From a virus (Duplodnaviria > Caudoviricetes), in the IMG/VR virus record IMGVR_UViG_3300024261_000038, positions 1 through 55,662 of that record: 55,662 bases of DNA; one strand, written 5' to 3'. The notes under the pieces were generated by a model. That model saw only the letters and a program-made list of their open reading frames with translations, was not told where the DNA came from and made no database searches. A program made the position numbers and the translations under genes. This document shows positions 1 through 31,056 of this stretch, piece by piece (position 1 is the first letter of the stretch; every line of letters begins with the position of its first letter).

Positions 1-1308
1 AATCAAGTTGAAAATGTAGTTAATCAAATAAATCAACCTAAAGTTATCCCAGCAGATAGTGCTGAAGGTAGAGGTATTACAGAACAATTATTAGGTAAGA
101 AAAAAGCAGATGTAATGGATATGGAAGGAAACAAAATTCCTGAAGGATCAAAGATTATGGGTGGTAAGAAAGTTGAATTTTCATTCAATGAAAAAATAGA
201 TTGGTTAGTTAAAAATGTTGATCCAAACGCAGAACAAACAATTCCACCAAAATTCGTATTACAAGAAATGTTAAAAGATGGTAGAGAAGATCTTATTGAT
301 CATTTTTTTGAAATACATACAAAAAATATAGGAAGTAAACCTGTAATTGATATAGATACAAGTGGCCTTAAACATCCTGAATTAGTTAAGAAAATGATGA
401 CGGATCAAAAATTAAAACCAACATTAGTTAATCAAGAATCAGATGCAGCAATTAAAGCACGTCTTGATGCTGGTAATAAAAAAGGTATTGCAAGTATACA
501 AATTAGTTTAGTTGATGATTCAATTGCTAAAATAAAATCTTTGGAACCAATGGATGCAATGAAAGAAGCAAACTTAGTTGCAGGAAAAAAAGGTAGATAT
601 GCAAACTTAGACGATAACCAAGTTAAAAAAATTATGGATGATACTCAAGAACATATCTTTCAAGATTCAAGTCCTCTTGATGATTATGCAACAGGTGGAC
701 GTGTTGGTTACAAAGTTGGTAGCGTTGATAAGATGAGAAGATTATTCTTACAAGCTATTGGAGCAGGTGCAGGAACAATCGGTGCAGCTAAATCTGGATT
801 ATTTAGTTTTGGTAAAGGAGCAACTAAACAAGTTGCAAAAGAAGTTGCACAGCAAACTACATCAGGTATGCCTCCTCCATATTTCTTCAAGCTTGCAGAG
901 AAAATTAAAATGATGGGTGATGATGCAACAGCTACAACAGAGAGAACTATTGCAAAAACATTAAAGTCTAAAGATGGTAAATCAACATATTTATTAGAAG
1001 AAGATATAACATCTGGAGATACAATCATTAAAAAGATTAATAAAGAAGGTGATGAGATGATCACTGACGTTGAGATTATGGAACTTAAAAAAGGTGAAGT
1101 TGTAATGGGCAAAAATGGTAAACCAGTTAAAGTACCTGATGAGTATGAAGAAGTTACAGAGTCTAATTCTAGAATTTACAAAGATGAATTTAACGATCCT
1201 GATTATACAGATGGAATTAAAGTAGATGAAATTATAAAAGAAGTAGATGACAAAGTACCATCAATCAAATATGCAAGTGGTGGCCTAGCTTATATGTTAG
1301 GAGAATAA
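1..1308 (+). CDS. Large virion-associated modular protein with xxGG motifs (5'-truncated by the window)
   Basis: Frame 1 is open from base 1 through the listed ATG at 115; contains YATGGRVG and ends YASGGLAYMLGE; stop overlaps the next ATG (TAATG). Confidence 0.7.
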   Translation, partial: NQVENVVNQINQPKVIPADSAEGRGITEQLLGKKKADVMDMEGNKIPEGSKIMGGKKVEFSFNEKIDWLVKNVDPNAEQTIPPKFVLQEMLKDGREDLIDHFFEIHTKNIGSKPVIDIDTSGLKHPELVKKMMTDQKLKPTLVNQESDAAIKARLDAGNKKGIASIQISLVDDSIAKIKSLEPMDAMKEANLVAGKKGRYANLDDNQVKKIMDDTQEHIFQDSSPLDDYATGGRVGYKVGSVDKMRRLFLQAIGAGAGTIGAAKSGLFSFGKGATKQVAKEVAQQTTSGMPPPYFFKLAEKIKMMGDDATATTERTIAKTLKSKDGKSTYLLEEDITSGDTIIKKINKEGDEMITDVEIMELKKGEVVMGKNGKPVKVPDEYEEVTESNSRIYKDEFNDPDYTDGIKVDEIIKEVDDKVPSIKYASGGLAYMLGE

Positions 1309-4300
1309 TGAATCCTTATAGACTTAAAAATGTATTTGAATATCTAACATCTAACAACCAACTACTTAAACGTAAATTAAAATTAGGAACTAGTGAAATA
1401 CCTATCCCTCCTAAAAGACAAGATGTTATTGATATAGAAGCTATCAACAGATTTAACAAAAATAATCCTCGTGTAGATACAACTAATGTTCAACCTGTTG
1501 TTAAACAGTCTACAATAAAACAATCTAATGTAGGTGAAATTGATGAAGGCGTGATCCAAGGTGCGTTCGACACGGCTACTATGGAAGCAAGAGATGGAGG
1601 CTACCCTGCACCAGTTTATGAGGCTTTTAAAAAAAGATACTTAAAAAGAAACATGAAAGCAGATGGTGGAAGGATTGGTTACAAAGACGGAGAGGGTGTT
1701 ATAACCGTTGATGATAAAATCGATGAGATGATTTCTTTTTACAAAGATTATTTAAACCAAGGTGGCAAGATGGATTTTAAAACCTTTTCTAAAAAATACA
1801 TACCAGAGAATTTTGAAAAAGGCGGACGTGCAGGTTACGAGGACGGACCAAAGCTAACTGATTTTCTCGATGTCCAAGCTTCAGGATCCAAGAGTGGTAA
1901 ACAACAAATCGAAGGTGCACCAAAAGGTATTACTGCTGATAGTGAAACAATAAACGCTATTATAAAAGCAGACATACCTGTATCTGAAAAAATAAATCTT
2001 CTTGCAACTTACGGTTACGGTAAGAGTAGAAATAGAATCGAAAACAAAGATCAAGAAATATTTTTAGATGAAGGGGGCTATAGAGACAGAAACGTTGGTA
2101 TAGACTTTAATAGAGATGGAGAAGGTCTTAGTGGTTCTGCTACCTATGGTATTGATACAGGTGAGCCACAGTTAAATATAAAATACAAAAAGAGTTTTGC
2201 TGACGGTGGTATGTTGGTACAACCTAGTGACGACGGATCACGGCCAGGGTATGCTAAAATGAAATTAGACGACGATACTATTCAAAAAATAAAAAATAAA
2301 GTTGCTTTAAAAAAAGGACAAAAATGGAATTTTTATGATCCAGAAACAAATCCAAAAGGACATACATATGGTGTTCCAAAAGGAGATACTAATTATGATA
2401 TTGCAAGAAATTTAAAACCAGGAAGATTAGAAGCAAAGTTAGAAAAAGCTACAGAAAAATACAAAGAAATAAAAGCTGATCCTAAATTATTGGCTGAAAA
2501 AAAATTAACAGATAAAGAAAGATATCAAACTAATAGAACTCAAATATTAGAAGACAAAAATTTTCAATATGAAACAGATAAAGATTATAGAGAAAAAAAA
2601 TTAGAATGGGCTAAACAAGATAGAATTAAAAATCCGGAAAAATATAAACAAAAATTAAATGATTATTTTGCAAAGAAAGGAAGATTTCCTCCGGGAAATA
2701 ACTATAAAGAAAATGTTTGGAGAGATATGTTTAGATCTTCACAAAAGGCAGGACAAGAAAGATTCTTGCTTGTCGGAGAAGACGGTAAACTTTTAACTCA
2801 AGATAAATTTCCTATAAAAGAAGGTAAAGTAAGATGGGACATTGGAGGTGCTTATAAGAAAGTAAAATTTTATGACACTAAAACAAAACAATTTGTAAAG
2901 TTTGATAATACTACTAAAGGAAAAGGTATAAGTTTTGAAAAATACTTGGATCAAAAATCTGTTGGCGGTAAAGGTGCTTATGAAGATGCTATTAATGGAT
3001 ATAAAAACAAAGATAATATAAAAGATTTAACTTTTAAAAATTCAAAAGGAAAAGATATTCGCCTAGGAACTATTGTGCAATCAAAATTAAATGATGGCGT
3101 TAATTTTATAAATAGTGGTGTCAATGTGCAACATCCGGATATTAACAATGCTTTTTGGAAAAATGAAGTTTCTCTAGCTTCTTCCAACAATGAATTAAAT
3201 TATTTAGAACAAACATTAGACAGAAAATTAAAAAATGCTGGAAACGATGTTACTTTAAGAAATAAAGCATTAAGTGAATTTAAAACTAAAATAAATAAAT
3301 TAGAAGGTGGTATAACTAAAATTATAGATGGTGAAACTTTTGGAGTAGCACCTAATGAAAAATCAGTTGTGAAAGCGGTAGGTAAAGAATCACGTTTAAA
3401 TAATTTTAAAGAATTTAAAACACTAGTAGCGGCTTTAGGTCCAGGCACGTGTTCCGTGTTTAGTGGTAAGAAAGCAGATGGTGGCCGTATAGGTCTTGCA
3501 ACAGGGACCCCTAACATAGATAAATGTTATGATGCTGCAACTGCAGCTATAAACTCTGGTAAAGTTCCTGTGGATAAAGCAGATGACTTTACTAAACTTT
3601 TAAAAAGAATGGGTACTATTGGAAGAGGTATTAGGAAGTTTGGTATCATACCGGAAGCAATGTACGTTGCAGCAGATTCTCTTGTTAGACTTGGTATGGG
3701 AAGTACTTTTAAAGAAGCGGGTTTACTAGCCTCCGATTATTTATTACCAGGAGACCAAACTAAAGCAGCAGAAATGAGTAAGGTTTCAAGAATTTTTGGT
3801 GACACTACAGGTGAGCTTGTAGGAAGGGTTATTGATTATAAAAATCAATTAGCAAAAATACAAAGTCTAGAGGATCAAATATCAAATCTTGATAATTTAT
3901 CTGATGTAGGAGAGTTTGATTATATGGGAGATTTATCTGGTGAATCTAATACTAAAAAAAATTTACTTTCACAAGCAAAGAATGATTTAGATAATAAGTT
4001 TAAAATATCAGAAGCAGAACAACTATATGCTGAAAGAAAACAAGAAGAGGCATATGATGCAAGTTCAGCTAACTCTTCGTTTTCAAACTTAAAAAGAAAA
4101 TATGGGGATTCATCAAATAATATAGATGATATAGAACAATTAGCATCACCTGAGAAAACTCAATTACAATTAAATTTAGATATGCTGCCAGCAGTACCTA
4201 AAGATTTTATGATGACAACAGATGATGAACTAACAAATTATGTTAATGCAGAAAGCGTAAGAAGCGGTGAAAAATTAGACCCACAAGTTTACATAGATGA

Positions 4301-4631
4301 AAAAGAAAAATTAAAAAAAGATTTCATGACCAAAGGTCCAGGTGTATATGGAGCAGAACAAGTATACGGAACACAAGGAATTTTTGCAGAACCTTTATTA
4401 AAAAGTATAGCTCGTAAGGAAAATTCAATAAACGATCTTGAAAGAGAAGTGGTCGGTCAAAGAAATAAATTTAATATTTTCGATAGAGATCATTCAGTTC
4501 TAGGAACGGGACTTAGAGGTTTTTCAGCGGCATCAGGAGGCATAGCAAGCCTAACTAAGACCATTCCACCAGAATCAGGGCCAACACCTCAAGGGTTGCC
4601 TTATGTATATAATAATGTTAAGAAGATATAG
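1308..4631 (+). CDS. 1107-aa modular virion-associated protein (xxGG-delimited modules, beta-barrel-like and possibly degenerate HNH-like segments)
   Basis: Long ORF with GGAG RBS, directly upstream of portal; motifs KADGGRIG (x2), FEKGGRAG, FADGG, AASGG. Confidence 0.7.
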   Translation: MNPYRLKNVFEYLTSNNQLLKRKLKLGTSEIPIPPKRQDVIDIEAINRFNKNNPRVDTTNVQPVVKQSTIKQSNVGEIDEGVIQGAFDTATMEARDGGYPAPVYEAFKKRYLKRNMKADGGRIGYKDGEGVITVDDKIDEMISFYKDYLNQGGKMDFKTFSKKYIPENFEKGGRAGYEDGPKLTDFLDVQASGSKSGKQQIEGAPKGITADSETINAIIKADIPVSEKINLLATYGYGKSRNRIENKDQEIFLDEGGYRDRNVGIDFNRDGEGLSGSATYGIDTGEPQLNIKYKKSFADGGMLVQPSDDGSRPGYAKMKLDDDTIQKIKNKVALKKGQKWNFYDPETNPKGHTYGVPKGDTNYDIARNLKPGRLEAKLEKATEKYKEIKADPKLLAEKKLTDKERYQTNRTQILEDKNFQYETDKDYREKKLEWAKQDRIKNPEKYKQKLNDYFAKKGRFPPGNNYKENVWRDMFRSSQKAGQERFLLVGEDGKLLTQDKFPIKEGKVRWDIGGAYKKVKFYDTKTKQFVKFDNTTKGKGISFEKYLDQKSVGGKGAYEDAINGYKNKDNIKDLTFKNSKGKDIRLGTIVQSKLNDGVNFINSGVNVQHPDINNAFWKNEVSLASSNNELNYLEQTLDRKLKNAGNDVTLRNKALSEFKTKINKLEGGITKIIDGETFGVAPNEKSVVKAVGKESRLNNFKEFKTLVAALGPGTCSVFSGKKADGGRIGLATGTPNIDKCYDAATAAINSGKVPVDKADDFTKLLKRMGTIGRGIRKFGIIPEAMYVAADSLVRLGMGSTFKEAGLLASDYLLPGDQTKAAEMSKVSRIFGDTTGELVGRVIDYKNQLAKIQSLEDQISNLDNLSDVGEFDYMGDLSGESNTKKNLLSQAKNDLDNKFKISEAEQLYAERKQEEAYDASSANSSFSNLKRKYGDSSNNIDDIEQLASPEKTQLQLNLDMLPAVPKDFMMTTDDELTNYVNAESVRSGEKLDPQVYIDEKEKLKKDFMTKGPGVYGAEQVYGTQGIFAEPLLKSIARKENSINDLEREVVGQRNKFNIFDRDHSVLGTGLRGFSAASGGIASLTKTIPPESGPTPQGLPYVYNNVKKI

Positions 4632-4640
4632 GAGTAATAA

Positions 4641-7094
4641 ATGGCAGATATAGATAAAGGACTCCCGAACACACGATCTAAAATTGAGATTCCTTCAGAA
4701 GAGGAATTGCAAGACATTGCTGTTCAGGAAGAAGACGTAGAAGAATTAAAAGGACCCGTTGAAGTTATCCCTGAAGAGGATGGCGGAGCAACTATCGACT
4801 ATGATCCAGGTGCAATAAACACTACAGGTTCACAATCACACTTTGACAACCTAGCAGATATTTTACCAGAAGATGCAGTTGAACCAATTGGAAACGAAAT
4901 GGTTCAAAACTACATGGACTACAAATCATCAAGAAAAGAATGGGAAAGTGCTTACACAAGTGGTCTTGATCTTTTAGGATTTAAATACGAAAACAGAACA
5001 GAACCTTTTCAAGGAGCTTCAGGTGCAACACACCCAGTATTAGCGGAAGCTGTAACTCAGTTTCAAGCTCAAGCTTACAAAGAATTATTACCAAGTGATG
5101 GTCCTGTTAGAACACAAGTTATAGGAATTAAAAATCCAGCGACGGAGCAACAGTCACAACGTGTTAAAGATTATATGAATTATTTAATCATGGACACAAT
5201 GAAAGAATATGAATCTGAATTTGATTCTATGTTATTTCATTTACCACTAGCTGGATCTACATTTAAAAAAGTTTACTACGACGTTCCACTTGGAAGAGTG
5301 GTATCGAAGTTTGTACCAGCGGATGAATTAATTGTTCCGTACACAGCTACCTCATTAGACGATGCGGAAGCAGTTATTCATACCGTGAAAATTTCAGAGA
5401 ACGAATTAAGAAAACAACAAGTCAATGGTTTTTATAGTGATGTCGAGTTAGGACCTCCAGGTACAGATACCAATGGAGAACTATCTAAAAAAGAACGTGA
5501 GCTAGAAGGAACTAAGAAGACAGGTAAGAACGAACCTATTTACACTTTGTTAGAGTGTCATGTTAATTTAGACTTAGAAGGTTTCGAAGATGTTGGCTCC
5601 GATGGTGAACCAACTGGAATAAAATTACCTTACCTCGTTACAGTCGATGAAGGTAGTAGAAAAGTTTTGTCTATTAGACGAAACTATGCGCCCGATGATC
5701 TAAAGAAAACTAAAATCCAATATTTCGTCCACTTCAAATTTCTGCCAGGACTAGGATTTTATGGCTTTGGACTCATTCACATGATTGGCGGATTGAGTCG
5801 TACGGCAACGTCGGCTCTCCGTCAATTATTAGATGCGGGTACATTATCAAATCTACCAGCAGGATTTAAACAACGAGGAGTTAGAGTAAGAGATGAAGCA
5901 TCACCAATACAACCAGGTGAATTTAAAGATGTAGATGCACCAGGTGGATCTTTAAGAGATGCATTCTTCCCTCTACCCTACAAAGAACCATCAGCAACAT
6001 TATTACAATTAATGGGTGTTGTAGTTGGTGCAGGTCAAAGGTTCGCGGCTATTGCTGATATGCAAGTGGGCGATGGAAACCAAGGCGCTGCAGTAGGAAC
6101 TACTGTTGCACTTCTTGAACGTGGATCACGTGTGATGTCTGCTATTCATAAAAGATGTTATGCAGCAATGAAGAATGAATTTAAATTATTATCTAAAATA
6201 GTTTCACAATACTTACCACCAGAATATCCTTATGATGTTGTAGGTGGTGCAAGAAACATTAAGCAAGCTGACTTTGATGATAGAATAGATGTAGTACCAG
6301 TTGCGGATCCTAATATATTCTCAATGAGTCAGAGAATAACTTTAGCTCAAACACAATTACAGATCGCAACATCAAATCCACAACTTCATAACATGTATCA
6401 AATTTACAGAAACATGTATAATGCAATTGGTGTAAAAGATGTTGATGCAGTTCTACCGCCACCGGCACCGAATGCACCATTAGATCCAAGTTTAGAACAC
6501 ATAAATGCTTTAGGTGGAAAACCTTTTCAAGCTTTTCCTGGTCAAGACCACAGAGCACACATTACAGCTCACTTAAATTTTATGTCAACTAACATGGTTA
6601 GAAATAATCCTGCGGTTATGGCTGCAATACAAAAAAATATCTTAGAGCACATTTCAATTATGGCTCAAGAACAGGTTCAATTAGAGTTCAGAGAGCAAAT
6701 GGCTAACATGCAGCAGATGCAACAGATGTCAGTAAACAATCCACAGATGCAACAACAGTTACAAATGCTTACAAATCAAGTTGAAGCAAGAAAAGCTGTC
6801 TTGATTGCTGAGATGACTGAAGAATTTATGAAAGAAGAGAATAAAATCACTTCACAAATGGATTCAGACCCACTATTAAAACTAAAATCACGTGAGGTTG
6901 ACTTGAGAGCGATGGAAAATGAACGAAAAAAAGAAGCTGATACAACAAAAGCTGATTTTGATAGAGCAAAATTAATGCAAGCAAGAGAATTAGCTGAAGA
7001 TAAGATGGATCAGAACGAAGAATTAGCAGAATTACGTGCAAATACTAGTTTAGCTAAAGCAGGTGTTAAAGAAATGTCTGTTCTTGACAATTAA
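4641..7094 (+). CDS. Portal protein
   Basis: 817 aa; RTEPFQGASGATHPVLAEAVTQFQAQAYKELLP and FLPGLGFYGFGL segments typical of podovirus portals; Q-rich C-terminal coiled coil; AGGAG RBS. Confidence 0.85.
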   Translation: MADIDKGLPNTRSKIEIPSEEELQDIAVQEEDVEELKGPVEVIPEEDGGATIDYDPGAINTTGSQSHFDNLADILPEDAVEPIGNEMVQNYMDYKSSRKEWESAYTSGLDLLGFKYENRTEPFQGASGATHPVLAEAVTQFQAQAYKELLPSDGPVRTQVIGIKNPATEQQSQRVKDYMNYLIMDTMKEYESEFDSMLFHLPLAGSTFKKVYYDVPLGRVVSKFVPADELIVPYTATSLDDAEAVIHTVKISENELRKQQVNGFYSDVELGPPGTDTNGELSKKERELEGTKKTGKNEPIYTLLECHVNLDLEGFEDVGSDGEPTGIKLPYLVTVDEGSRKVLSIRRNYAPDDLKKTKIQYFVHFKFLPGLGFYGFGLIHMIGGLSRTATSALRQLLDAGTLSNLPAGFKQRGVRVRDEASPIQPGEFKDVDAPGGSLRDAFFPLPYKEPSATLLQLMGVVVGAGQRFAAIADMQVGDGNQGAAVGTTVALLERGSRVMSAIHKRCYAAMKNEFKLLSKIVSQYLPPEYPYDVVGGARNIKQADFDDRIDVVPVADPNIFSMSQRITLAQTQLQIATSNPQLHNMYQIYRNMYNAIGVKDVDAVLPPPAPNAPLDPSLEHINALGGKPFQAFPGQDHRAHITAHLNFMSTNMVRNNPAVMAAIQKNILEHISIMAQEQVQLEFREQMANMQQMQQMSVNNPQMQQQLQMLTNQVEARKAVLIAEMTEEFMKEENKITSQMDSDPLLKLKSREVDLRAMENERKKEADTTKADFDRAKLMQARELAEDKMDQNEELAELRANTSLAKAGVKEMSVLDN

Positions 7095-7308: not shown

Positions 7309-7698
7309 ATGTGGTTTTCGGCAATTAAATTAGCCGTCTCTGCTGGTAGTAAAATTTATGCTAACAAGCAGAAGACTAAAATGGCAATGTCAGATGCACA
7401 GCTTATGCATGCATCTCGTATGGCCGAAGGAAAAGAAGCCTACCAGGGAAAACTTTTAGAAGCACGTCAATCAGACTGGAAGGACGAGGCGGTTTTGATA
7501 ATTTTAAGTTTGCCAATCGCAATTTTGGCCTGGGCAGTCGTATCGGATGATCCGACAGCAATGGACAAAGTAAAATTGTTCTTCGAGATGTTCTCACAGC
7601 TTCCGTCATGGTTTACAAATCTTTGGATACTTGTCGTCGCGAGTATTTATGGTATAAAGGGTACACAAATATTTAGAAACGGCGGAGGAAAAAAATAA
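7309..7698 (+). CDS. Putative holin (3TM/GTA-holin-like)
   Basis: SDWKDE motif followed by two hydrophobic helices and a basic C-terminus. Confidence 0.55.
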   Translation: MWFSAIKLAVSAGSKIYANKQKTKMAMSDAQLMHASRMAEGKEAYQGKLLEARQSDWKDEAVLIILSLPIAILAWAVVSDDPTAMDKVKLFFEMFSQLPSWFTNLWILVVASIYGIKGTQIFRNGGGKK

Positions 7699-8168
7699 TG
7701 TCAGGATGGGTAAAAGCAGGTCAAGCAGGTTGGAGTGCTATTAAAGGAGTATTACCAAAAGTTAATAAAACAAAATTAAGTAAAGCTACAAGTGAATTAA
7801 ATATTGCTATACAAAAAACAAAAAGTTCTAAAGCAAAATTAAAACAAACATTGTTTGAAATAGAAAATAAAATGCCTTTAACTTTTAAAAAAAGTAGTAA
7901 AAAATCAGAATCAAATAAAGAAGCTTATAAAAGAATACAAAAAGATAATACTAAAGTAATTAAAAGTATGATTGATAAAGCTACTGAAAAAAAAGCTGAT
8001 GGTGGAAGAATAGGTAGAAAACTTGGTGGTGGTACTGACATGGCTAAGAGAAAGACAAACGTTCAAAAAATAAAAGAAACATTTGCACCTAAAAAATTTA
8101 AAGGTTTTTTTAAACTACCAGAAAAAGTTCAACAAAAAATGAACAAGAAACTAGCGAGAAAAGTTTAA
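7698..8168 (+). CDS. Lysine-rich basic protein with KADGGRIG motif
   Basis: Very K-rich ORF, translationally coupled to both neighbours. Confidence 0.65.
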   Translation: MSGWVKAGQAGWSAIKGVLPKVNKTKLSKATSELNIAIQKTKSSKAKLKQTLFEIENKMPLTFKKSSKKSESNKEAYKRIQKDNTKVIKSMIDKATEKKADGGRIGRKLGGGTDMAKRKTNVQKIKETFAPKKFKGFFKLPEKVQQKMNKKLARKV

Positions 8169-8527
8169 TGGCTGTAACAGGAACATTTAAAGATTTAACT
8201 AAAAAAGAAAAAGATGTTTTAAAAAAACATTTAGACCCTGTTGGAGGTCCTAAATCTCTTAAAGATAAAGTAATAGATGCAGGTAAAAAAGTTTTAGAAA
8301 TAGGAAAAAAAGCTGTAGAGTTTACTCCTCCTGGTCAAGTTAAAAAACTTGTTGAACTTGTAAAAGATAATTCTAAAAGAGCAGAACGTAAATTAAATAA
8401 CGAAAGATTAAATCCTGGTAAAATTCCAAAACCAATGAAAACAGGTGGAAGAGCCGGATACAAAATGGGCGGTAAATGTAAGTTAGCCACAAAAGGCAAA
8501 GGAAGAGCTTACGGAAAGAATTCGTAA
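8168..8527 (+). CDS. Lysine-rich basic protein with MKTGGRAGYKMGG motif
   Basis: Coupled ORF (TAATG overlaps); basic; tandem GG motif near the C-terminus. Confidence 0.65.
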   Translation: MAVTGTFKDLTKKEKDVLKKHLDPVGGPKSLKDKVIDAGKKVLEIGKKAVEFTPPGQVKKLVELVKDNSKRAERKLNNERLNPGKIPKPMKTGGRAGYKMGGKCKLATKGKGRAYGKNS

Positions 8528-8751
8528 TGCAATTAGAAACAGTAATAAATAAAACGTTAAGATATCTAGACTCAAGAATAGAAGCACTGTCTATATCCGT
8601 CACATCTGGTGGGGTTGACAGTATGGAAAATTACAAGTATATGATAGGACAAATAAACGCCTACGAGGCAACTAAACAGGAAATCTCTAACCTGCTAAAC
8701 GATAAGGAGCACAATGAAGGAACAGTCATCGATATTAACACCAAACAATAA
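8527..8751 (+). CDS. Hypothetical protein
   Basis: Coupled 74-aa helical ORF before groES. Confidence 0.6.
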   Translation: MQLETVINKTLRYLDSRIEALSISVTSGGVDSMENYKYMIGQINAYEATKQEISNLLNDKEHNEGTVIDINTKQ

Positions 8752-23724: not shown

Positions 23725-24227
23725 TATACGTAGTTAATATTAATATTTAAACGCAAGTGTTTATCGGTACACGTTGTGCTTTGATGTAGTTTGCTAGTAT
23801 CAAAAAATACGGCCCTATTTTCAATACTTTCAATCTTAGTTCCGTCTTCTAGAATAGTATATCCATTGTTATTATTAATATGAAATATTAATCCTTTATG
23901 AGGAAAAGGATAATCTTGATGTTTTGCATGAGTATATTGAGTTTCAGTAGATGGATAACAATTTACTTTTGCTCTAATTATAGATGTGTGATCGATTCTA
24001 GTCATAATAGGTGTCAATAGCTTTTCAAAAAAATTACTTCGTATAGTATTTTCAAAATATAAAAAATGAACAAAATGATAGAGATCATCCTTTTTTAAAG
24101 ATCCATTGCCTTTTTTATAAAAATAAGACAGCTCAAAGGTTATGATTTTTTGTACTTCTTTAAAAATATCCAGAGGAAGGAAATTTTCGACTATTTTATA
24201 TTTATTGACCGCAGTAGCTTTCTTCAT
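23724..24227 (-). CDS. 2OG-Fe(II) oxygenase-like protein
   Basis: HQD...NNGYT...FDTSKLH...RLNININY; start likely MKKAT at 24227, as longer starts overlap the opposite gene. Confidence 0.7.
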   Translation of the reverse strand: MKKATAVNKYKIVENFLPLDIFKEVQKIITFELSYFYKKGNGSLKKDDLYHFVHFLYFENTIRSNFFEKLLTPIMTRIDHTSIIRAKVNCYPSTETQYTHAKHQDYPFPHKGLIFHINNNNGYTILEDGTKIESIENRAVFFDTSKLHQSTTCTDKHLRLNININYV

Positions 24228-24233
24228 TATAAT
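24205..24233 (+). promoter_or_regulatory. Sigma70-type promoter restarting the tail operon after the inverted cassette
   Basis: TTGACC-17 nt-TATAAT. Confidence 0.7.
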
Positions 24234-24261
24234 GAGGAATATTAACATAAAAAAGACTATC

Positions 24262-26439
24262 ATGCTACAAAAAATTGGATTCCAACCAGGCATCAATAAA
24301 CAAATATCAGAAACTACTGCTGAAGGACAATGGGTAGATTGTGATAATGTACGTTTTAGATATGGCACACCTGAAAAAATAGGTGGATGGAAACAGTTAG
24401 GAACAGATGATCTAACTGGAGCAGCCAGAGGACTACATCATTTTGTAAACAGCTTAGGTAGAAAGTACGCAATCATAGGTACAAACAGTATTTTATATGC
24501 ATATTCAGGTGGAGTATTCTACGACATACACCCCATAGATACTACAACTACTCTTAGTAATGCTTTCAGCACAACTAATGGATCTCCCACTGTTACTATA
24601 ACTTTTCCTTCTGCACATAATATGACAGATAATGATATTATTCTTTTAGATAATTTTACAACAATAACTAATTCTAATTTTAGTGCATCAGATTTTGACG
24701 ATAAAAAATTTATGGTAACATCGGTGCCTTCTACAACAACTATAACAATTACAATGCCATCAAATGAAACAGGTAGTGGTGCAACCACATCTGGAGGTAT
24801 TAGAATTCAACATTATTATACAGTAGGTCCATCTGTTCAAGGAAAAGGTTTTGGTTTTGGTTTAGGTTCTTGGAGTGGTCCTGCTGCAGGAGCAGTAACA
24901 ACAACTTTAGATGGAGCAATCAACGCTGCAGTAACTAGTATTACACTATCAGATGCTTCACAGTTTCCAGACAGTGGAACTAATTTTATTATAATAGGTT
25001 CAGAAGAAATTTCATACACAGGAGTTAGTAGTAATACTTTAACAGGGTGTACTAGAGGTGTAGCAGGAACAACAGCAGCATCTCACAGTGATGGAGATAC
25101 AGTTACAAACTCAACTGACTATGTTGCATGGGGAGAAGCAGCGTCAGGAGATTTAATTGTTGAACCGGGTATGTGGTCATTAGATAACTTTGGAGACAAA
25201 GCTATTTGTTTAATTCACAACAACGCTTGTTTTGAATGGGACTCTTCTTCATCAAATGCAACAGCAACTAGAGCTACAATTATATCAGGTGCACCAACAT
25301 CTTCACGTCATATGTTAGTATCTACTCCTGATAGACACTTAGTATTTTTTGGAACAGAAACAACTATTGGTGATCCATTAACACAAGATGAAATGTTTAT
25401 TAGATTCTCGGACCAAGAGGATATTAATACTTATACACCTACAGCAACCAATACAGCTGGTACACAGAGACTGGCCGACGGATCACGGATCATGGGAGCT
25501 ATTAGAGGTAGAGATGCAATTTATGTTTGGACTGATACTGCATTGTTCACTCAACGTTTTGTTGGTCAACCATTTACTTTTGCCTTTGCACAAGTTGGGA
25601 CCAACTGTGGACTTGTAGGACAGAATGCTTGTGTTGAAGTTGATGGTGCTGCGTACTGGATGTCAGAAAATGGTTTCTTTAGATTTGCTGGTAGACTAGA
25701 GTCTTTACCTTGTTTAGTAGAGGACTATGTTTATGATGATATAAATATAGAGTCAGGTAATCAAATGATATCTGCTGGATTAAATAATTTGTTTGGTGAA
25801 GTAATATGGTTTTACCCAACGTCTTCCTCAGCTGTTGTAAATAGAATGGTTTCATATAATTATTTTGATTCTTCTCCTCAAAGACCTGTATGGGCAAATG
25901 GATCTTTATCTAGAACTATGTGGAAAGACTCAGCAGTTTTTGGTAGTCCACATGCAACAGAATACGATGCAGGCACTGATAGTTCTTTTGATGTAGTTGG
26001 AAACACAGAAGGTATGACAACTTATTATGAACACGAAATTGGAACTGATCAAAATAAAAACGGAGTAATCACTGCAGTTACTGCAAACATTTCGTCAGGA
26101 GATTTTGATATAACACAAGCAAGATCTGCTCAAGGAACTCAAACAGGTATTGCAACTTTTAAAGGAGATGGTGAATATTTAATGAAAATAAGAAGATTTG
26201 TACCTGACTTCATATCACAAACAGGAACTACTAGAGTTACATTACAATTAAAAAACTATCCTAATGATTCACAAACTGGTTCACCACTTGGACCTTTTGA
26301 TATAACAACCTCTACTACAAAAGTAGACACACGTGCAAGAGCAAGATCAATTGCTATGAAAATAGAAAACACAGCAGCTAGTCAAAGTTGGAAACTAGGT
26401 ACTTTTAGATTAGATACACAACCGGATGGTAGAAGATAA
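24262..26439 (+). CDS. Tail nozzle / tail tubular B-like (DNA stabilisation) protein
   Basis: MLQKIGFQPGINK start, WVDCDNVRFR, IRFSDQED and C-terminal PDGRR; beta-propeller-like. Confidence 0.65.
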   Translation: MLQKIGFQPGINKQISETTAEGQWVDCDNVRFRYGTPEKIGGWKQLGTDDLTGAARGLHHFVNSLGRKYAIIGTNSILYAYSGGVFYDIHPIDTTTTLSNAFSTTNGSPTVTITFPSAHNMTDNDIILLDNFTTITNSNFSASDFDDKKFMVTSVPSTTTITITMPSNETGSGATTSGGIRIQHYYTVGPSVQGKGFGFGLGSWSGPAAGAVTTTLDGAINAAVTSITLSDASQFPDSGTNFIIIGSEEISYTGVSSNTLTGCTRGVAGTTAASHSDGDTVTNSTDYVAWGEAASGDLIVEPGMWSLDNFGDKAICLIHNNACFEWDSSSSNATATRATIISGAPTSSRHMLVSTPDRHLVFFGTETTIGDPLTQDEMFIRFSDQEDINTYTPTATNTAGTQRLADGSRIMGAIRGRDAIYVWTDTALFTQRFVGQPFTFAFAQVGTNCGLVGQNACVEVDGAAYWMSENGFFRFAGRLESLPCLVEDYVYDDINIESGNQMISAGLNNLFGEVIWFYPTSSSAVVNRMVSYNYFDSSPQRPVWANGSLSRTMWKDSAVFGSPHATEYDAGTDSSFDVVGNTEGMTTYYEHEIGTDQNKNGVITAVTANISSGDFDITQARSAQGTQTGIATFKGDGEYLMKIRRFVPDFISQTGTTRVTLQLKNYPNDSQTGSPLGPFDITTSTTKVDTRARARSIAMKIENTAASQSWKLGTFRLDTQPDGRR

Positions 26440-27113: not shown

Positions 27114-29123
27114 ATGGCCATAACAAACGCACAGCAATACAAACAATTACTAGCACAAGGTGGACGTATAGGACTCAAAGGTGGAGCGGATGCTTCTACA
27201 TTTAATTCAAAAAGAGAGAAACGAATTACACCAAACGTTACTGCTGGTGGCGCTAGTTTCAACAAAATGGAACCAGGTCCTACTAAAAAACAGCGAAGAG
27301 ATGAAGCTATAAAGATGCAAGGTGGTAACGCCGATATAAATAAATTTATAGCAACAAGAAACTATCCTAAAATGAAATTGGGAGTATTTGATATACTTAC
27401 TGATGGCAAAGCTACTAAAAAATTTGTAGATTTTTCTTCAGCAATAAACAGACCTTATTTTATTAACGAAGTAATTAGAGCAGGTAGAATCCCTGGTTTA
27501 AATTATGGAACTCTTGCTGATATGTCTCAAGACGAATTAGAAGAACACTATAAAGAATATAATAGAGCTAGATTAAGTAATGAAATAGATGCTTACGGTA
27601 ATCCTATAATGGGTGGGGATGGAATGTATAGTGATGGTGCTGTTCTTCCTAAAGAAGGTATCCTGACTGCTGATGCAGCGGATGCTATAGACCCAATAGA
27701 AGATGAAGATCAAATTAATTACAGACTCTTAGCTGATGGTGGTAGAGCTGCGTTTGCAGATGGTTCTACGTATGACGAAGCTGGATTAAATGAAGTCAAG
27801 TCTACTAAACAAGACAGAATGATAATAGGAGGACAAGGAGATGACGAACCAAAAGGTTTTATAAAACCAAAAGGTCCACCTATGGGACAAGGTAGCGACA
27901 AAATTAGAAATAACCCAAATTTATTTGGAAATATGAGACTAGCTAATAATAATCTTTTTGATAAAAAAATGTTAGAGCAGTTAGGATTAATAAATGATGA
28001 AAATGAGGATATGAAAGTGGCAGGACTTAACCAAGAGCAAGTTGATTACTTAAATCAAGTAGGTAATAAAGTTATAAACGTATCTCCTGAAGGAGGAAGT
28101 CTTTTTACTTATGACAGTCCAACAAATATAAAAAAACAAATAGAAAAATTAAATCCAGAATCAGATAGTTTATGGTTTACAGGTTTTAGTTTTGACCCAG
28201 ATAAAATTGTAGAGGGAGATAAAGGCACATATGCCACTGATCAAGATGTAAAAAACTATATGAAAAGTAATTTTCCAAAATTAACAACAGATGGTAGAAA
28301 AATAGGATTAGCAGAAGGTGGCATGCCTTACGAAGGTGGGATCATGGATCTTGAAACATCAAGACAACAATATGGTCTAGGTAAACTTGTTAGAAAAATT
28401 ACACGTGGTGTTAAGAAGATAGCTAAGTCTCCAATAGGTAAAGCTGCATTAGCTTTTGGTGCATATAAATTGGGTGGTGCATTTTTAAAAAATAAAGGAA
28501 TTATGGGTTCAATATTTGGTCAAGCAGGATCAAGAGTTGGACAATCTTTTGTCCCTTTCAAAGAAGGGTTTCTTCCTTCATTAGGTTTAACAAAAGGTGG
28601 TGGGTCTATGATGCCAACAGCTTTAGGTGGCATAGGTTTAACATCATTAGCATCATATTTCATGACACCTGAAGAAGAGGATAATGATGAAATATTATAT
28701 GCTGGAGCAGACCTAAGTGCTAGTCCTAAATATATTATGGCAAATAATCGTGATTTTACTAATACAAGACTTTTAGCTGAAGGTGGATCTACAGAAGAAA
28801 AAGAACCGGTAGCTAAAAAGACTATGCCTCTATTAGATATGGATGGTCAAGAAATGGATTTAAGAGCTGAAGGTGGATTTGTACCATTAGGTAGAATGGA
28901 AAAAGCAGATGACGTACCTGCAAGACTATCTAAGAATGAATTTGTATTTACGGCTGAGGCTGTAAGAAATGCAGGTGAAGGAGATGTAGACAAAGGCGCA
29001 GAAGTTATGTATAACATGATGAAGAACTTAGAATCCGGAGGTGAAGTTTCAGAAGAATCTCAAGGGTTGGAAGGCGCTAGAGAAATGTTTCAAACATCAC
29101 AAAGATTAGAGGAAGTAATATAA
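27114..29123 (+). CDS. Modular internal virion protein with multiple xxGG motifs and a C-terminal tape-measure-type EFV domain
   Basis: LAQGGRIG, LADGGRAA, LAEGG (x2), RAEGG, LESGG; C-terminal ADDVPARLSKNEFVFTAEAV. Confidence 0.65.
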   Translation: MAITNAQQYKQLLAQGGRIGLKGGADASTFNSKREKRITPNVTAGGASFNKMEPGPTKKQRRDEAIKMQGGNADINKFIATRNYPKMKLGVFDILTDGKATKKFVDFSSAINRPYFINEVIRAGRIPGLNYGTLADMSQDELEEHYKEYNRARLSNEIDAYGNPIMGGDGMYSDGAVLPKEGILTADAADAIDPIEDEDQINYRLLADGGRAAFADGSTYDEAGLNEVKSTKQDRMIIGGQGDDEPKGFIKPKGPPMGQGSDKIRNNPNLFGNMRLANNNLFDKKMLEQLGLINDENEDMKVAGLNQEQVDYLNQVGNKVINVSPEGGSLFTYDSPTNIKKQIEKLNPESDSLWFTGFSFDPDKIVEGDKGTYATDQDVKNYMKSNFPKLTTDGRKIGLAEGGMPYEGGIMDLETSRQQYGLGKLVRKITRGVKKIAKSPIGKAALAFGAYKLGGAFLKNKGIMGSIFGQAGSRVGQSFVPFKEGFLPSLGLTKGGGSMMPTALGGIGLTSLASYFMTPEEEDNDEILYAGADLSASPKYIMANNRDFTNTRLLAEGGSTEEKEPVAKKTMPLLDMDGQEMDLRAEGGFVPLGRMEKADDVPARLSKNEFVFTAEAVRNAGEGDVDKGAEVMYNMMKNLESGGEVSEESQGLEGAREMFQTSQRLEEVI

Positions 29124-30268
29124 TGGCCGTAACAGAACAAGTATCAAGACCAGCACCTTTTGTAGAAAAACTAGGAACTAACTTAGCAGAAAATGTATTA
29201 GCCCAACAAGGTGTACCCATTGTATCATCAGGTATTGCAGGCTTAACACAATTTGCTGGTGAAGATCCAGCAGCTTTTGCAGCAAGACAAAAAGCTGGAC
29301 AAGCTTTTGATATTAGAAAACAAAATTTAGCAGGCCTTGCACCACAAGTTGCAGGTCAAGATGCATTACAAGGAACGGCACAAACATTAGCACAACAAAA
29401 TGCAGGAATAGATCCAACTACTGGACAAAAAACTGGACTAGCTTCTTTTGAACCATTTTTACAAACAGCAGGTCAACAAGCACAAGTTGCTGCTGGATTA
29501 GGAACACAGGCTCTTGGACAATTACAAACAGCAGGATCTACTTTTGGTGCAATACCAACAGGTCCAATGACAACTGCACAAACACAACAATATATGTCAC
29601 CATATCAATCACAAGTGATTGATGCATCACTTGCAGAATTTGATCGTAATAAACAAATACAAGAACAACAGATCAAAGATCAACAAACCGCTTTGGGTGC
29701 GCTCGGCAGTGGTCGAGCGGGAGTGCAACTCGCTGAGTTTGGCACAGGGGCAGCGAGAGAACGAGCTTTATTACAAGCTGGTCTCTTACAGCAAGGTTTT
29801 GGACAAGCTCAAGCTGCAAGACAGCAAGACATCCAAAACAGGTTTAACTTAGGACAAGCACAACAAGGTATCGCTGGAGCAACTCAAAATTTAGGTGCAT
29901 TCCAATCAGGACTTGCTGGTCAACAAGCAGGACTTGGAGCACAAACTCAATCATTACAAGGAACAGATATTTCACGTTTAGGTCAGTTGGGCGCACTGAA
30001 CCAAGCGCAAACACAAGCAGGACTTGATGCAACTAGAGAAGCTACAAGACAAGCAGCATTTCAACCACAAGAACAATTAGATAGATACACTAATCAAGTA
30101 ACAGGAATTATGGGTGGTTATCCAGGTCAAACAGTTTCAACTAATGTACCTAACCCTACACCATTACAAACTGCACTAGGTGTTGGTACAACACTTGCTG
30201 GTGTATACGGTGGATTAACAGGTAAATTAACAGGAAACTTTAATTTTAATAAACAATCAAGTGTTTAA
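29123..30268 (+). CDS. Q/A/G-rich DNA ejection (pilot-like) protein
   Basis: YMSPYQSQVID motif, long Q/A-rich helices, hydrophobic Gly-rich C-terminal segment. Confidence 0.6.
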   Translation: MAVTEQVSRPAPFVEKLGTNLAENVLAQQGVPIVSSGIAGLTQFAGEDPAAFAARQKAGQAFDIRKQNLAGLAPQVAGQDALQGTAQTLAQQNAGIDPTTGQKTGLASFEPFLQTAGQQAQVAAGLGTQALGQLQTAGSTFGAIPTGPMTTAQTQQYMSPYQSQVIDASLAEFDRNKQIQEQQIKDQQTALGALGSGRAGVQLAEFGTGAARERALLQAGLLQQGFGQAQAARQQDIQNRFNLGQAQQGIAGATQNLGAFQSGLAGQQAGLGAQTQSLQGTDISRLGQLGALNQAQTQAGLDATREATRQAAFQPQEQLDRYTNQVTGIMGGYPGQTVSTNVPNPTPLQTALGVGTTLAGVYGGLTGKLTGNFNFNKQSSV

Positions 30269-30270
30269 TT

Positions 30271-31056
30271 ATGAATAGAACTTTAAAAAGACCAATGTTT
30301 AGAATGGGTGGATCAACAGGAACTGGTATTACATCAGGACTAGATCAACCAAGAAAACAATACAATCAAGGATCTAATCCTTATAACATGGGAAACTTTG
30401 CTCCTGGAACAGGTGCAGGTTTCTTAACTCAATTTGGTTTAGATCTAGTATCAAGACCACCACAAGGAAACATATTTCAAACGATGGCAACATCAGCTAA
30501 ACAACCTTTTCAAGATTTTCAAGCAGCACAATTTGCAAAAGGTCAAAAAATGGGTGAAAGAGATTTTTTAAGAAGTGAAAGATTAGAAGGTCAAGAATTT
30601 GATAAGTCACAACTAGCAGCTAAATTATCTTCTGATGAAAAAATTGCAGGTATGAGAACTAATAAAGATGATGTTTTATATAACGTATCTTTAGAATCAT
30701 TTTTAGAAAACCTACCTCCAATGGTAGCTGAAAGAGCAGCAAAATTTAACACTGAAATGGCAGATGTTTTAAGAGAATCTGTAGGTGGTCAAAAATATGG
30801 TGGAGTATTAGAAATTGATATTAGAGATCCTGAACAAGGAAAAATTATAAAAAAACAAAAAAACAGATTTGACAACAAAATCTTTTACGATCCATATGAA
30901 GACAACTACAAATACATAGTAGTAAAAAATGGTGTAATTTCTTTTGATGAATTTTCAACAATACCAGAAATTAAATTCCCAGACTTTACAGCTTCACAAC
31001 CAGAGAAAATAGATAGATCAGTACCAGAGTTTGGTTTAACATCGGATCAACCATAG
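30271..31056 (+). CDS. Putative ejection / internal virion protein
   Basis: Starts MNRTLKRPMFRMGG; lies between two ejection-type genes. Confidence 0.5.
   Translation: MNRTLKRPMFRMGGSTGTGITSGLDQPRKQYNQGSNPYNMGNFAPGTGAGFLTQFGLDLVSRPPQGNIFQTMATSAKQPFQDFQAAQFAKGQKMGERDFLRSERLEGQEFDKSQLAAKLSSDEKIAGMRTNKDDVLYNVSLESFLENLPPMVAERAAKFNTEMADVLRESVGGQKYGGVLEIDIRDPEQGKIIKKQKNRFDNKIFYDPYEDNYKYIVVKNGVISFDEFSTIPEIKFPDFTASQPEKIDRSVPEFGLTSDQP

What the first reader, a model, noticed from the sequence alone, without database searches (positions are those of the whole stretch)
685..30312. A recurring, often tandem [YFLMK]-[AK]-x-G-G motif punctuates six virion-region proteins: candidate polyprotein processing or cargo-targeting system
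Seen: otherwise dissimilar proteins share the motif, eight times as an 8-residue tandem pair: YATGG-RVG-YKVGS (ORF 1-1308); KADGG-RIG-YKDGE, FEKGG-RAG-YEDG and KADGG-RIG-LATGT (1308-4631); KADGG-RIG-RKLGG (7698); MKTGG-RAG-YKMGG (8168); LAQGG-RIG-LKGG and LADGG-RAA-FADGS (27114). Single copies: YASGG, FADGG, AASGG, LAEGG x2, RAEGG, LESGG, FRMGG (30271). I did not notice it in the capsid or replication proteins. Copies sit at termini or between compositionally distinct blocks. Known: Gly-Gly motifs direct virion-protein maturation in adenoviruses and asfarviruses, and lambdoid tape-measure proteins carry [FY]AxGG. Inference: these are cleavage sites or capsid-loading/ejection tags that let the phage package interchangeable cargo domains as polyproteins.
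Basis: partly seen in the sequence, partly recalled or inferred. Interest (0 to 1): 0.9.

Follow-up and report, generated by a model that had tools for sequence, protein, structure and literature searches.

The report
Junction motif of phage injection proteins
A 12-residue glycine-rich motif really does recur at the joints of fast-evolving internal proteins of an abundant ocean phage, and its core matches the spot where phage T5 cuts its DNA-injection protein, so it probably marks where protein modules are joined, cut or docked.

Summary
The window is a pelagiphage of the HTVC027P/HTVC023P group. Its consensus motif is [KFM]-A-[DK]-G-G-R-[IVA]-G-[LFY]-[KR]-x-G. It occurs 8 times in 5 of 60 ORFs, against 0.00 expected from shuffles. 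A scoring matrix trained only on other contigs recovers exactly these 8. Related contigs hold 113 and 93 further copies, all on the coding strand, and 1210 protein clusters in a 1.84-billion-protein library match the motif profile. The carriers are hypervariable proteins flanking the portal gene and a tape-measure-like ejection protein. AlphaFold places the copies in low-confidence linkers, and blocks between copies are exchanged between protein families. Shorter h-A-x-G-G forms sit at invariant termini. The same short form lies immediately after the mapped maturation cut of T5 pb2 (after R1127, before AEGG). The window's ejection protein has RAEGG at the matching place, in a segment that aligns with lambda gpH. 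No protease is encoded. My best reading (0.40) is a boundary element for assembly-coupled processing. An uncleaved docking or cargo tag is the main rival (0.28). The function is inferred, not shown.

The parts
1..1308 (+). Protein A (5'-truncated by the window edge; the first gene after TerL in relatives). It has a variable N-terminal part, one long motif, a Tat-signal-like helix, a beta-rich C-domain and an invariant C-terminal tail.
685..723 (+). Long motif copy 1 (YATGGRVGYKVGS)
   Evidence: 27.6 bits; pLDDT below 50
733..789 (+). MRRLFLQ followed by a Gly/Ala-rich hydrophobic stretch, directly after the motif. It resembles a Tat signal or a weak membrane helix.
   Evidence: Pfam TAT_signal matches 11 of 32 orthologues at E<=0.1, not the window copy
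1270..1305 (+). C-terminal tail of protein A, YASGGLAYMLGE (short form of the motif)
   Evidence: 40 of 44 profile hits end in ..GG..(M/L)LGE; pLDDT below 50
1308..4631 (+). Protein B (1107 aa): a hypervariable body with three long motifs, two short forms and a conserved C-terminal tail
1656..1694 (+). Long motif copy 2 (KADGGRIGYKDGE)
   Evidence: 35.6 bits
1812..1850 (+). Long motif copy 3 (FEKGGRAGYEDGP)
   Evidence: 28.1 bits
2196..2210 (+). Short form FADGG
3471..3509 (+). Long motif copy 4 (KADGGRIGLATGT)
   Evidence: 35.6 bits
4527..4628 (+). C-terminal tail of protein B, beginning AASGGIAS and running to ..PPESGP..QGL..
   Evidence: A tail of this type ends the ORF directly upstream of the portal in 55 of 81 sources (sequences)
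4641..7094 (+). Portal protein (no motif; context only)
   Evidence: phrog_1216 at 2.8e-69 and PF23899
7698..8168 (+). s156, a small basic protein with one long motif
7992..8030 (+). Long motif copy 5 (KADGGRIGRKLGG)
   Evidence: 35.2 bits
8168..8527 (+). s119, a small basic protein with one long motif near its C-terminus
8435..8473 (+). Long motif copy 6 (MKTGGRAGYKMGG)
   Evidence: 31.1 bits
27114..29123 (+). E1, a tape-measure-like ejection protein: conserved N-terminal helix, hypervariable middle and a highly conserved C-terminal region
27150..27188 (+). Long motif copy 7 (LAQGGRIGLKGGA), directly after the N-terminal helix
   Evidence: (31.2 bits)
27729..27767 (+). Long motif copy 8 (LADGGRAAFADGS)
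   Evidence: 28.7 bits
28308..28322 (+). Short form LAEGG (followed by MPYEGGIMD)
   Evidence: the best local match to the T5 pb2 cut site, not significant at E 0.33
28773..28787 (+). Short form LAEGG
28863..28877 (+). Short form RAEGG, 85 residues from the C-terminus. It opens the segment that aligns with lambda gpH 734-785 and corresponds to the T5 pb2 cut site R1127|AEGG.
   Evidence: PMC10038345
29028..29042 (+). Short form LESGG, which aligns with YATGG of lambda gpH
29123..30268 (+). E2, an ejection-protein homologue (no motif; context only)
   Evidence: phrog_4287 'DNA ejection protein' at 1.8e-13
30298..30312 (+). FRMGG near the N-terminus of E3. In relatives a protein encoded about 1 kb downstream of E1 carries a long copy.

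Best explanation
The motif is a short, unstructured 'junction' element of phage DNA-delivery proteins, meaning ejection proteins and tape-measure-like proteins. It has a core h-A-x-G-G (h = hydrophobic or basic residue). In this phage group the core is extended to [KFM]-A-[DK]-G-G-R-[IVA]-G-[LFY]-[KR]-x-G.

It sits in exposed linkers at the N-terminal edge of modules, and it is the only constant part of proteins whose bodies evolve and are exchanged very fast.

The most likely mechanism is that the junction is the boundary or recognition element for limited, assembly-coupled proteolysis. The proteins would be made as strings of modules and cut just before the Ala of some junctions, as in T5 pb2. 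The pieces would stay in the particle and leave with the DNA. The protease would be a host enzyme or an unrecognised one, since the phage encodes none that can be recognised.

Shown here: the motif itself, its enrichment, its restriction to these proteins, its low-confidence (probably disordered) setting, the module exchange, and the sequence correspondence to the T5 and lambda sites. Inferred: that any copy in this phage is cut, and that proteins A, B, s156 and s119 are virion proteins.
For: (1) Enrichment and selection on the protein. There are 8 copies against 0.00 expected, and an independently trained matrix finds only these 8. The copies use different synonymous codons. All 113 of 113 and 93 of 93 copies in two sets of 80 related contigs are on the coding strand, although about a third of the ORF residues scanned were on the other strand.

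(2) Positions the search pattern did not require are conserved across 129 distinct copies: A at -2 in 74%, G at +4 in 95%, L/F/Y at +5 in 94%, G at +8 in 96%.

(3) The copies lie in low-confidence linkers between confident domains. In protein A, residues 225-246 and 417-435 score below pLDDT 50 while neighbouring domains score about 90. E1 has a mean pLDDT of 49.5, and its copy after helix 3-14 lies in a low-confidence stretch.

(4) The architecture is beads on a string. Spacing between copies peaks at 50-59 residues (76 of 356 spacings), and the blocks between copies are unlike one another.

(5) T5 pb2 is cut 'after R1127' (PMC10038345, section 9, passage), and its sequence there reads FVPR|AEGGMMYPG. 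pb2 has only 5 GG dipeptides in 1219 residues.

(6) E1 has RAEGG 85 residues from its C-terminus; the T5 C-terminal fragment is 92 residues. The E1 family profile aligns residues 585-646 with lambda gpH 734-785, with 43% identity over 51 columns and E 0.0026. In that alignment AEGGF falls on ATGGF and LESGG on YATGG. The same part of E1 hits tape-measure PHROGs at E 0.002.

(7) Lambda gpH loses a fragment of about 14 kDa from its glycine-rich C-terminal region, and both the site and the protease are unknown (PMC12617516, passages). FATGG lies at residues 733-737 of gpH.

(8) Long and short forms replace each other at the same place in the E1 N-terminus.

(9) Other delivery proteins are processed at glycine-rich junctions. 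TP901-1 Tal is processed at NGGGNSGGGD (PMC11409707, passages). P22 gp7 loses 20 residues through the host enzyme OpdA (record note), and the sequence there reads YPE|KGGKGG.
Against: No cleavage has been observed in this phage or any close relative, and I saw no virion proteomics for this group (passages of 10.1101/2019.12.14.876532).

No protease other than an M15 endolysin-type peptidase was found among the ORFs scanned with PHROGs and Pfam.

If the cut is placed as in T5, all the conservation lies on the C-terminal side, out to about 11 residues, and the residue before the cut varies (K, F, M, L, Y, R). That is unusual for a protease site and fits a binding element better.

Some copies are so close to an end that cutting would release only 6-13 residues: the E1 N-termini and the 11-residue tail of protein A.

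The link to T5 rests on a five-residue identity plus position. The direct profile match to T5 is not significant (E 0.33), and the lambda match has low hhalign probability (11.6%).

A T5-like cut in lambda at F733|A734 would leave about 12.6 kDa, against the reported figure of about 14 kDa.
Confidence: 0.4

Rival explanations
1. The motif is an uncleaved docking or cargo-loading tag. The motif and the conserved terminal tails would bind a conserved phage component (portal, scaffold, capsid interior or another internal protein). Fast-changing injected proteins would then be recruited into the procapsid and held there, much as cargo peptides load encapsulins or the T4 targeting sequence loads internal proteins.
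For: Short conserved peptides are attached to hypervariable bodies. Protein A orthologues are 21-64% identical while the portals of the same contigs are 77-94% identical.

Terminal tails are invariant: 40 of 44 A-type ends, and a B-type tail in 55 of 81 sources.

Copy number varies from 0 to 6, which suits binding by avidity.

Conservation runs over about 12 residues, mostly on one side. The setting is low-confidence and probably disordered. No protease is encoded. The same modules appear in different carrier proteins.
Against: No partner has been identified. In T5 and lambda the part of the C-terminal fragment seen bound to the tail tip is its far C-terminal end, not the motif region. That is lambda residues 818-849, with about 690-817 unresolved (PMC12617516), and the last 35 residues in T5. 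The one experimental fact about any member of the motif family is a cut.
Confidence: 0.28
2. The motif is a structural hinge or assembly element of the ejected channel. It would be a helix cap plus tight turns that lets strings of small helical modules pass through the narrow portal and tail channel. Alternatively it would pair between chains when the trans-envelope conduit forms.
For: The motif follows a predicted helix in E1 (helix 3-14, then the copy). Glycines are fixed at 0, +1, +4 and +8. The modules between copies are mostly about 40-50 residues long. The carriers look like ejection proteins: largely low-confidence in AlphaFold, with Gly/Ala-rich hydrophobic stretches.
Against: A hinge alone does not need a fixed Arg, an aliphatic residue, an aromatic residue and a Lys. 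AlphaFold gives no confident structure for the motif, alone or packed on its neighbours.
Confidence: 0.14
3. The motif is a chaperonin handle. The short form would mimic the GroEL-binding mobile loop of GroES, so that these aggregation-prone proteins are held by host GroEL until the phage's own GroES or the assembly process releases them.
For: The phage encodes GroES at 8714-9127, next to s119. Its mobile loop reads KTKGGLVLAE, and the relatives have KTKGG followed by three hydrophobic residues. Short forms read GG+LAY, GG+IAS, GG+IMD and GG+FVP, and in DSL-LC04 GG+LV or GG+IV. [quoted passage not shown] I saw this as a citation only.
Against: The long form has Arg and Gly where the loop needs hydrophobic residues (GG-R-I-G). 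The resemblance rests on four to five residues. No test was run.
Confidence: 0.08
4. The motif is an adenovirus- or asfarvirus-type GG|X site cut by a virus-encoded cysteine protease.
For: There is a Gly-Gly core with a hydrophobic residue upstream. The architecture is beads on a string.
Against: The residue four before the would-be bond is A, K or E in 8 of 8 long copies, not M/I/L. That consensus is recalled, not checked here. No such protease family was matched in the ORFs scanned. The mapped T5 cut lies before the Ala, not after GG.
Confidence: 0.03
5. The pattern is a chance or compositional artefact, or a DNA repeat with no meaning for the proteins.
For: The carrier proteins are fairly glycine-rich (8.5-12.6% Gly in four of the five, 7.1% in s156).
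Against: Shuffles that keep each protein's composition give 0.00 copies. The independent matrix finds only the 8. Codons differ between copies. There are 0 of 206 copies on the non-coding strand. 1210 protein clusters match the motif profile at E<=0.001.
Confidence: 0.01

Closest known systems
Maturation cut of the T5 tape-measure protein pb2 (pb2* plus pb2C)
   Same: The cut falls after R1127, directly before AEGG (PMC10038345, passage). The window's E1 has RAEGG 85 residues from its C-terminus, against 92 in T5. Both are DNA-delivery proteins with a hydrophobic stretch upstream.
   Different: T5 has one site in one protein and is a long-tailed phage. Here the extended form occurs 8 times in 5 proteins of a short-tailed phage. 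Nothing is known to be cut here. The direct sequence match to T5 is not significant.
C-terminal region of lambda gpH (gpH* / gpHC)
   Same: FATGG..[9 protein letters not shown]..YATGG in gpH aligns with AEGGF..NEFVFTAEA..LESGG in E1. gpH is cut in this glycine-rich region, and the site and protease are unknown (PMC12617516, passages).
   Different: Lambda lacks the R-[IVA]-G-[LFY]-K extension and has two copies in a single protein. The homology is weak (E 0.0026, hhalign probability 11.6%).
Glycine-rich processing junction of TP901-1/Tuc2009 Tal
   Same: It is a glycine-rich motif at a domain junction of a tail-tip delivery protein, and it is processed (PMC11409707, passages).
   Different: The sequence differs (NGGGNSGGGD), there is one site, and the host is Gram-positive.
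P22 gp7 leader removal by host OpdA
   Same: An ejection protein of a short-tailed phage is trimmed by a host peptidase next to GG-x-GG.
   Different: The cut lies one residue before GG rather than two. There is no Ala and no extended motif. It is a single N-terminal site.
Encapsulin cargo-loading peptides and the T4 capsid targeting sequence (both recalled; nothing read here)
   Same: Both are short conserved peptides in flexible ends of otherwise unrelated cargo proteins, and both direct the cargo into an HK97-fold shell or prohead.
   Different: No binding to the capsid, scaffold or portal is shown here. Most long copies are internal. The T4 sequence is removed by a phage prohead protease, and none is found here.
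Adenovirus and asfarvirus GG-X processing sites (recalled)
   Same: They have a Gly-Gly core and occur in virion core proteins.
   Different: The upstream residues do not fit, no viral cysteine protease is found, and the precedent in T5 cuts at a different bond.

Membership tests
Tape-measure-type C-terminal processing module (lambda gpH / T5 pb2) | Sequence similarity to the conserved C-terminal region of tape-measure proteins | tested here: inconclusive
   E1 residues 585-659 hit phrog_4197 and phrog_5448 at E 0.002. hhalign of the E1 family against gpH gives E 0.0026 but probability 11.6%. There is no Pfam hit and no PDB sequence hit.
Tape-measure-type C-terminal processing module (lambda gpH / T5 pb2) | h-A-x-G-G at the start of the C-terminal fragment, where the mapped cut lies | tested here: met
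   T5 reads FVPR|AEGG, with the cut after R1127. E1 has RAEGG at residues 584-588. Lambda has FATGG at 733-737.
Tape-measure-type C-terminal processing module (lambda gpH / T5 pb2) | The protein is actually cut during assembly | not testable with these tools
   This needs virion proteomics.
Adenovirus/asfarvirus GG-X maturation sites | M/I/L four residues before the cut, with the cut after GG (consensus recalled) | tested here: not met
   Position -2 is A in 6, K in 1 and E in 1 of the 8 long copies, and A in 74% of 129 copies.
Adenovirus/asfarvirus GG-X maturation sites | A virus-encoded cysteine protease of that clan | tested here: not met
   No such family was matched in the Pfam or PHROG scans of the window ORFs. 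ORFs of unknown function remain.
Encapsulin-type cargo-loading peptide | A short conserved peptide in a flexible end of otherwise unrelated cargo proteins | tested here: met
   Conserved tails of proteins A and B sit on hypervariable bodies. The tail of A scores below pLDDT 50.
Encapsulin-type cargo-loading peptide | The peptide binds the inner face of the HK97-fold shell | not testable with these tools
   This needs a binding or co-assembly experiment, or a structure.
T4-type capsid targeting sequence | An N-terminal leader removed by the phage prohead protease | tested here: not met
   No prohead protease was found. Only 24 of 228 long copies lie near the N-terminus.
GroES mobile loop (GroEL-binding) | A conserved Gly followed by three small hydrophobic residues (PMC5649160, passage) | tested here: inconclusive
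   Some short forms fit (GG+LAY, GG+IAS, GG+IMD). The long form does not (GG+RIG).
Twin-arginine (Tat) signal (for the segment after the motif in protein A) | RRxFLK followed by a moderately hydrophobic stretch, at the N-terminus of the protein | tested here: inconclusive
   PF10518 matches 11 of 32 orthologues at E<=0.1, best 0.0018. The window copy gives no hit at that threshold. The segment is internal, not N-terminal.

The most novel reading that the evidence does not exclude
HTVC023P/027P-type pelagiphages run a modular system for delivering injected cargo. Small, rapidly swapped effector modules of about 40-130 residues would be strung together by one universal junction peptide. That peptide would both load the strings into the capsid and mark where they are cut into separate injected pieces. 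The same junction code (h|A-x-G-G) would be the long-sought cleavage signal of tape-measure proteins such as lambda gpH. The phage GroES next door may take part in handling these strings.
Probability: 0.15. Interest if true: 0.85.

Novelty: new variant of a known kind. Interest (0 to 1): 0.66.

Why it matters
These phages are among the most abundant viruses in the surface ocean, and almost none of their structural proteins have an assigned role (10.1101/2019.12.14.876532, passages).

The motif gives a handle on five of those proteins at once. It shows that their bodies are mosaics exchanged at fixed joints.

It also turns two open points about classic phages into direct tests. The site and the catalyst of lambda gpH cleavage are both stated to be unknown (PMC12617516). 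The T5 site combined with this motif family predicts a cut before Ala734 of gpH, and analogous cuts in ejection proteins of short-tailed phages.

If instead the motif is a loading tag, it would be a ready-made peptide for packaging foreign proteins into phage heads.

Tried and rejected
Complex prediction of major capsid protein + scaffold + a 40-residue motif segment, each given as an alignment. The verdict was 'no answer' (score 0.00 in both runs, controls not run). It says nothing either way.

Structure search with the protein A model. There were 0 matches at E<=0.001 in the PDB. In the viral library the two strongest of three matches at E<=0.001 were uncharacterised proteins of uncultured viruses, and the third was a nidovirus-like replicase polyprotein at TM-score 0.12.

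PDB sequence searches with E1 and B gave no hit.

The ESM Atlas search with B gave only unnamed viral clusters at scores of 0.82 or less.

NCBIfam on ten proteins gave only sub-threshold noise.

tblastn against the phage collection: B found no match, and the E1 C-terminus found only the three known relatives.

Literature. A search for the motif strings found 32 papers holding at least one string; none of the 25 listed concerns phages, judging by title. Searches on ejection proteins, targeting and motifs and on tape-measure cleavage sites found no description of this motif. PMC9599517 holds none of six structural terms. Passages of the SU10 paper say only that its ejection proteins gp20-24 are not resolved.

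Leads dropped. (a) The TerL C-terminus (FRQGGLI) as a portal-binding copy: the GG is not kept in HTVC023P or DSL-LC04 TerL. (b) The idea that the long form is limited to the HTVC027P branch, which I had used to argue about the partner. Uncultured contigs sharing HTVC023P's gene order around the ejection-protein genes, including a pair of unmatched ORFs upstream of E1 where HTVC023P has a glycosyltransferase, carry the long form in E1. I withdrew the argument. (c) p154 and p186 as hidden proteases: no family hit, and p154 has one His and no Cys. Neither was folded.

Full report
WHAT THE WINDOW IS. The window is a whole IMG/VR virus record of 55,662 bases. It is linear and estimated 69% complete. 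It holds no tRNA genes. Its portal protein (4641-7094; phrog_1216 at 2.8e-69, PF23899 SU10_portal) is 66% identical to that of Pelagibacter phage HTVC027P. It is 63% identical to phage 023Pt_psg01, 51% to HTVC023P and 46% to DSL-LC04.

The gene order matches those phages. It runs: [TerL, missing at the window edge] - A (1-1308) - B (1308-4631) - portal - p129 - s156 (7698-8168) - s119 (8168-8527) - GroES - scaffold - p154 - p186 - major capsid protein - tail genes. After the tail genes comes E1 (27114-29123), then E2 (phrog_4287 'DNA ejection protein', 1.8e-13), E3 and E4 (1315 aa, virion structural protein).

The 5-mer [YFLMK][AK].GG occurs 13 times, all in five ORFs, against 4.08 expected from 2000 within-protein shuffles. 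The extended pattern occurs 8 times against 0.00 expected. GG dipeptides as such are not enriched (109 against 113.6).

Because these patterns were chosen after looking, I trained a scoring matrix on 118 distinct copies from other contigs only. It recovers exactly the 8 window copies (27.6-35.6 bits). No other hit among 60 ORFs reaches 8 bits, and the best of 12,000 shuffled proteins scores 14.5. The copies use different synonymous codons, so the constraint acts on the protein.

THE MOTIF IS WIDESPREAD. Eighty contigs found through the portal hold 113 copies, and eighty found through the E1 C-terminus hold 93. All 206 are on the coding strand, although about a third of the ORF residues scanned lay on the other strand.

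The logo from 129 distinct copies is [KFM]-A-[DK]-G-G-R-[IVA]-G-[LFY]-[KR]-x-G-[GTS]. Positions that the search pattern did not require are strongly conserved. HTVC027P has 3 copies and 023Pt_psg01 has 4, in the corresponding genes.

A profile of the motif matched 1210 of 1.84 billion cluster representatives at E<=0.001, and 168 at E<=1e-10, many with 3-6 copies. Of the best 150, 58 end in the protein A tail, 32 have the E1 C-terminus and 60 were unclassified. Of 67 scanned, essentially none has a Pfam domain. Five match tape-measure phrog_5448 and one matches tape-measure phrog_23013.

ANATOMY. The carriers are hypervariable. Protein A orthologues are 21-64% identical, and only 24 and 18 ORFs in the first locus set are detectably similar to A and B. 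The portals of the same contigs are 77-94% identical. What stays fixed is the motif and the termini:

- Protein A ends in ..ASGG[IL]A.MLGE in 40 of 44 profile hits.
- A B-type tail (GG[IL]A..SGPPPESGP..QGL..) ends the ORF upstream of the portal in 55 of 81 sources.
- E1 starts with a conserved helix followed by the motif or a short variant. Its last 110 residues are 93-100% identical among the best 120 listed of 8000 matching proteins, whose lengths run from 390 to 798 residues.

AlphaFold gives pLDDT below 50 for the motif and tail of protein A, between domains scoring about 90. It gives E1 a mean pLDDT of 49.5. The motif therefore looks like a linear element in exposed linkers.

Spacing between copies peaks at 50-59 residues (76 of 356), and the blocks between them are diverse small modules.

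Blocks move between carriers. B residues 118-181 are 74% identical to part of an A-type protein in L044. Two block families occur in both A-type and E1-type proteins. In HTVC027P the A-type C-domain sits at the end of the second gene.

In DSL-LC04 and HTVC023P only the short form h-A-x-G-G-[LIV] is seen, in the same gene classes. Uncultured contigs sharing HTVC023P's gene order around the ejection-protein genes do carry the long form in E1.

LINK TO TAPE-MEASURE PROTEINS. gpH reads ..[30 protein letters not shown]....YATGGYVG... The E1 family profile aligns residues 585-646 with gpH 734-785 (E 0.0026, 43% identity over 51 columns, but hhalign probability only 11.6%). In that alignment one short form falls on another at each end.

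In the passages I read, lambda gpH is said to lose a fragment of about 14 kDa from its glycine-rich C-terminal region. [quoted passage not shown] Residues of about 690-817 are unresolved, while 818-849 bind gpI (PMC12617516).

For T5 the main text gives the pb2 cut 'after R1127' (PMC10038345). The sequence there is FVPR|AEGGMMYPG, in a protein with only 5 GG dipeptides in 1219 residues. E1 has RAEGG 85 residues from its end, against 92 in T5. The direct profile match to T5 is not significant, although its best local alignment falls on the cut site (E 0.33).

Two looser parallels exist. TP901-1 Tal is processed at a glycine-rich junction (PMC11409707). P22 gp7 loses a 20-residue leader through host OpdA, next to KGGKGG.

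HOW IT MOST LIKELY WORKS. I put 0.40 on the motif being the boundary element for assembly-coupled limited proteolysis of modular delivery proteins. The cut would fall just before the Ala, as in T5, and would be made by a host or unrecognised protease. No phage protease other than an M15 peptidase is found.

Several facts count against this:

- Nothing is known to be cut in this phage.
- Conservation lies almost wholly on one side of the putative bond.
- Some copies lie within a few residues of an end.

The same facts favour the main rival, an uncleaved docking or cargo tag (0.28). That reading explains conserved tails on hypervariable bodies but has no identified partner. A hinge or assembly role (0.14) and a GroES-loop-like chaperonin handle (0.08) remain possible. 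The adenovirus-type reading (0.03) fails on the upstream residues, the missing protease and the position of the T5 cut. Chance is excluded.

NOVELTY. Glycine-rich processing junctions in single delivery proteins are known. I found nothing in print describing a sharply defined junction motif of about 12 residues, repeated across at least five protein families of one phage, conserved in over a thousand protein clusters and bounding exchangeable modules. Those searches cover only the held library, and supplements were closed. I rate it a new variant of a known kind.

Noticed in passing
window 733-789 (protein A residues 245-263) and orthologues in L006-L085: Directly after the last long motif, protein A has M-x-RRxF[LI]K followed by a Gly/Ala-rich hydrophobic stretch. 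This looks like a twin-arginine signal placed in the middle of a protein. Pfam TAT_signal matches 11 of 32 orthologues at E<=0.1 (best 0.0018), and one unrelated motif-rich protein at 3.3e-4. A Met just before the RR is in the consensus, so an internal start or exposure after a cut is conceivable.
   Followed up: partly
window 1-4631 versus 4641-7094, compared with L006-L085: The two genes between TerL and the portal are extremely variable (21-64% identity for A, and mosaic) while the adjacent portal is 77-94% identical. This pattern would fit injected proteins under host pressure.
   Followed up: partly
window 8714-9127: The phage GroES lies inside the head module, next to the motif-bearing small proteins. 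Its mobile loop (KTKGGLVLAE) resembles the short form of the motif.
   Followed up: partly
window about 20629-24368 (minus strand), GC 27-28%: A block of genes on the opposite strand has lower GC. Among 47 ORFs scanned together, one matches Trp_halogenase (PF04820, 1.1e-96) and up to three match 2OG-Fe(II) oxygenase families. By size the halogenase is probably 21782-23194(-), but I did not check which ORF gives which hit.
   Followed up: no
window 27114-29123 and P0001-P0120: At least 8000 proteins in the public collection matched the last 110 residues of E1. The best 120 listed are 93-100% identical there, yet their total lengths range from 390 to 798 residues. A highly conserved end is attached to a freely varying, low-complexity middle.
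   Followed up: partly
window 7309-7698 (p129): A conserved 129-residue protein (phrog_2524; similar ORFs in 61 subject ORFs of the first locus set) has hydrophobic helices and sits between the portal and the small motif proteins. HTVC023P gp33 ends in the same ..IKGTQIF.GGKK. Its role is unknown; it could be a membrane protein of the injection set.
   Followed up: no
window 3100-3250 (protein B, about residues 600-650) and HTVC027P gp42: By eye, B and HTVC027P gp42 carry a stretch that looks like an HNH-type nuclease signature (..VQHPDINN.. and ..EVDHFDK..N..). No family search supported this, and it was not tested.
   Followed up: no
window 46851-48128: No ORF of 80 residues or more lies on either strand for about 1.3 kb, and there is no tRNA. 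I did not examine this region further.
   Followed up: no
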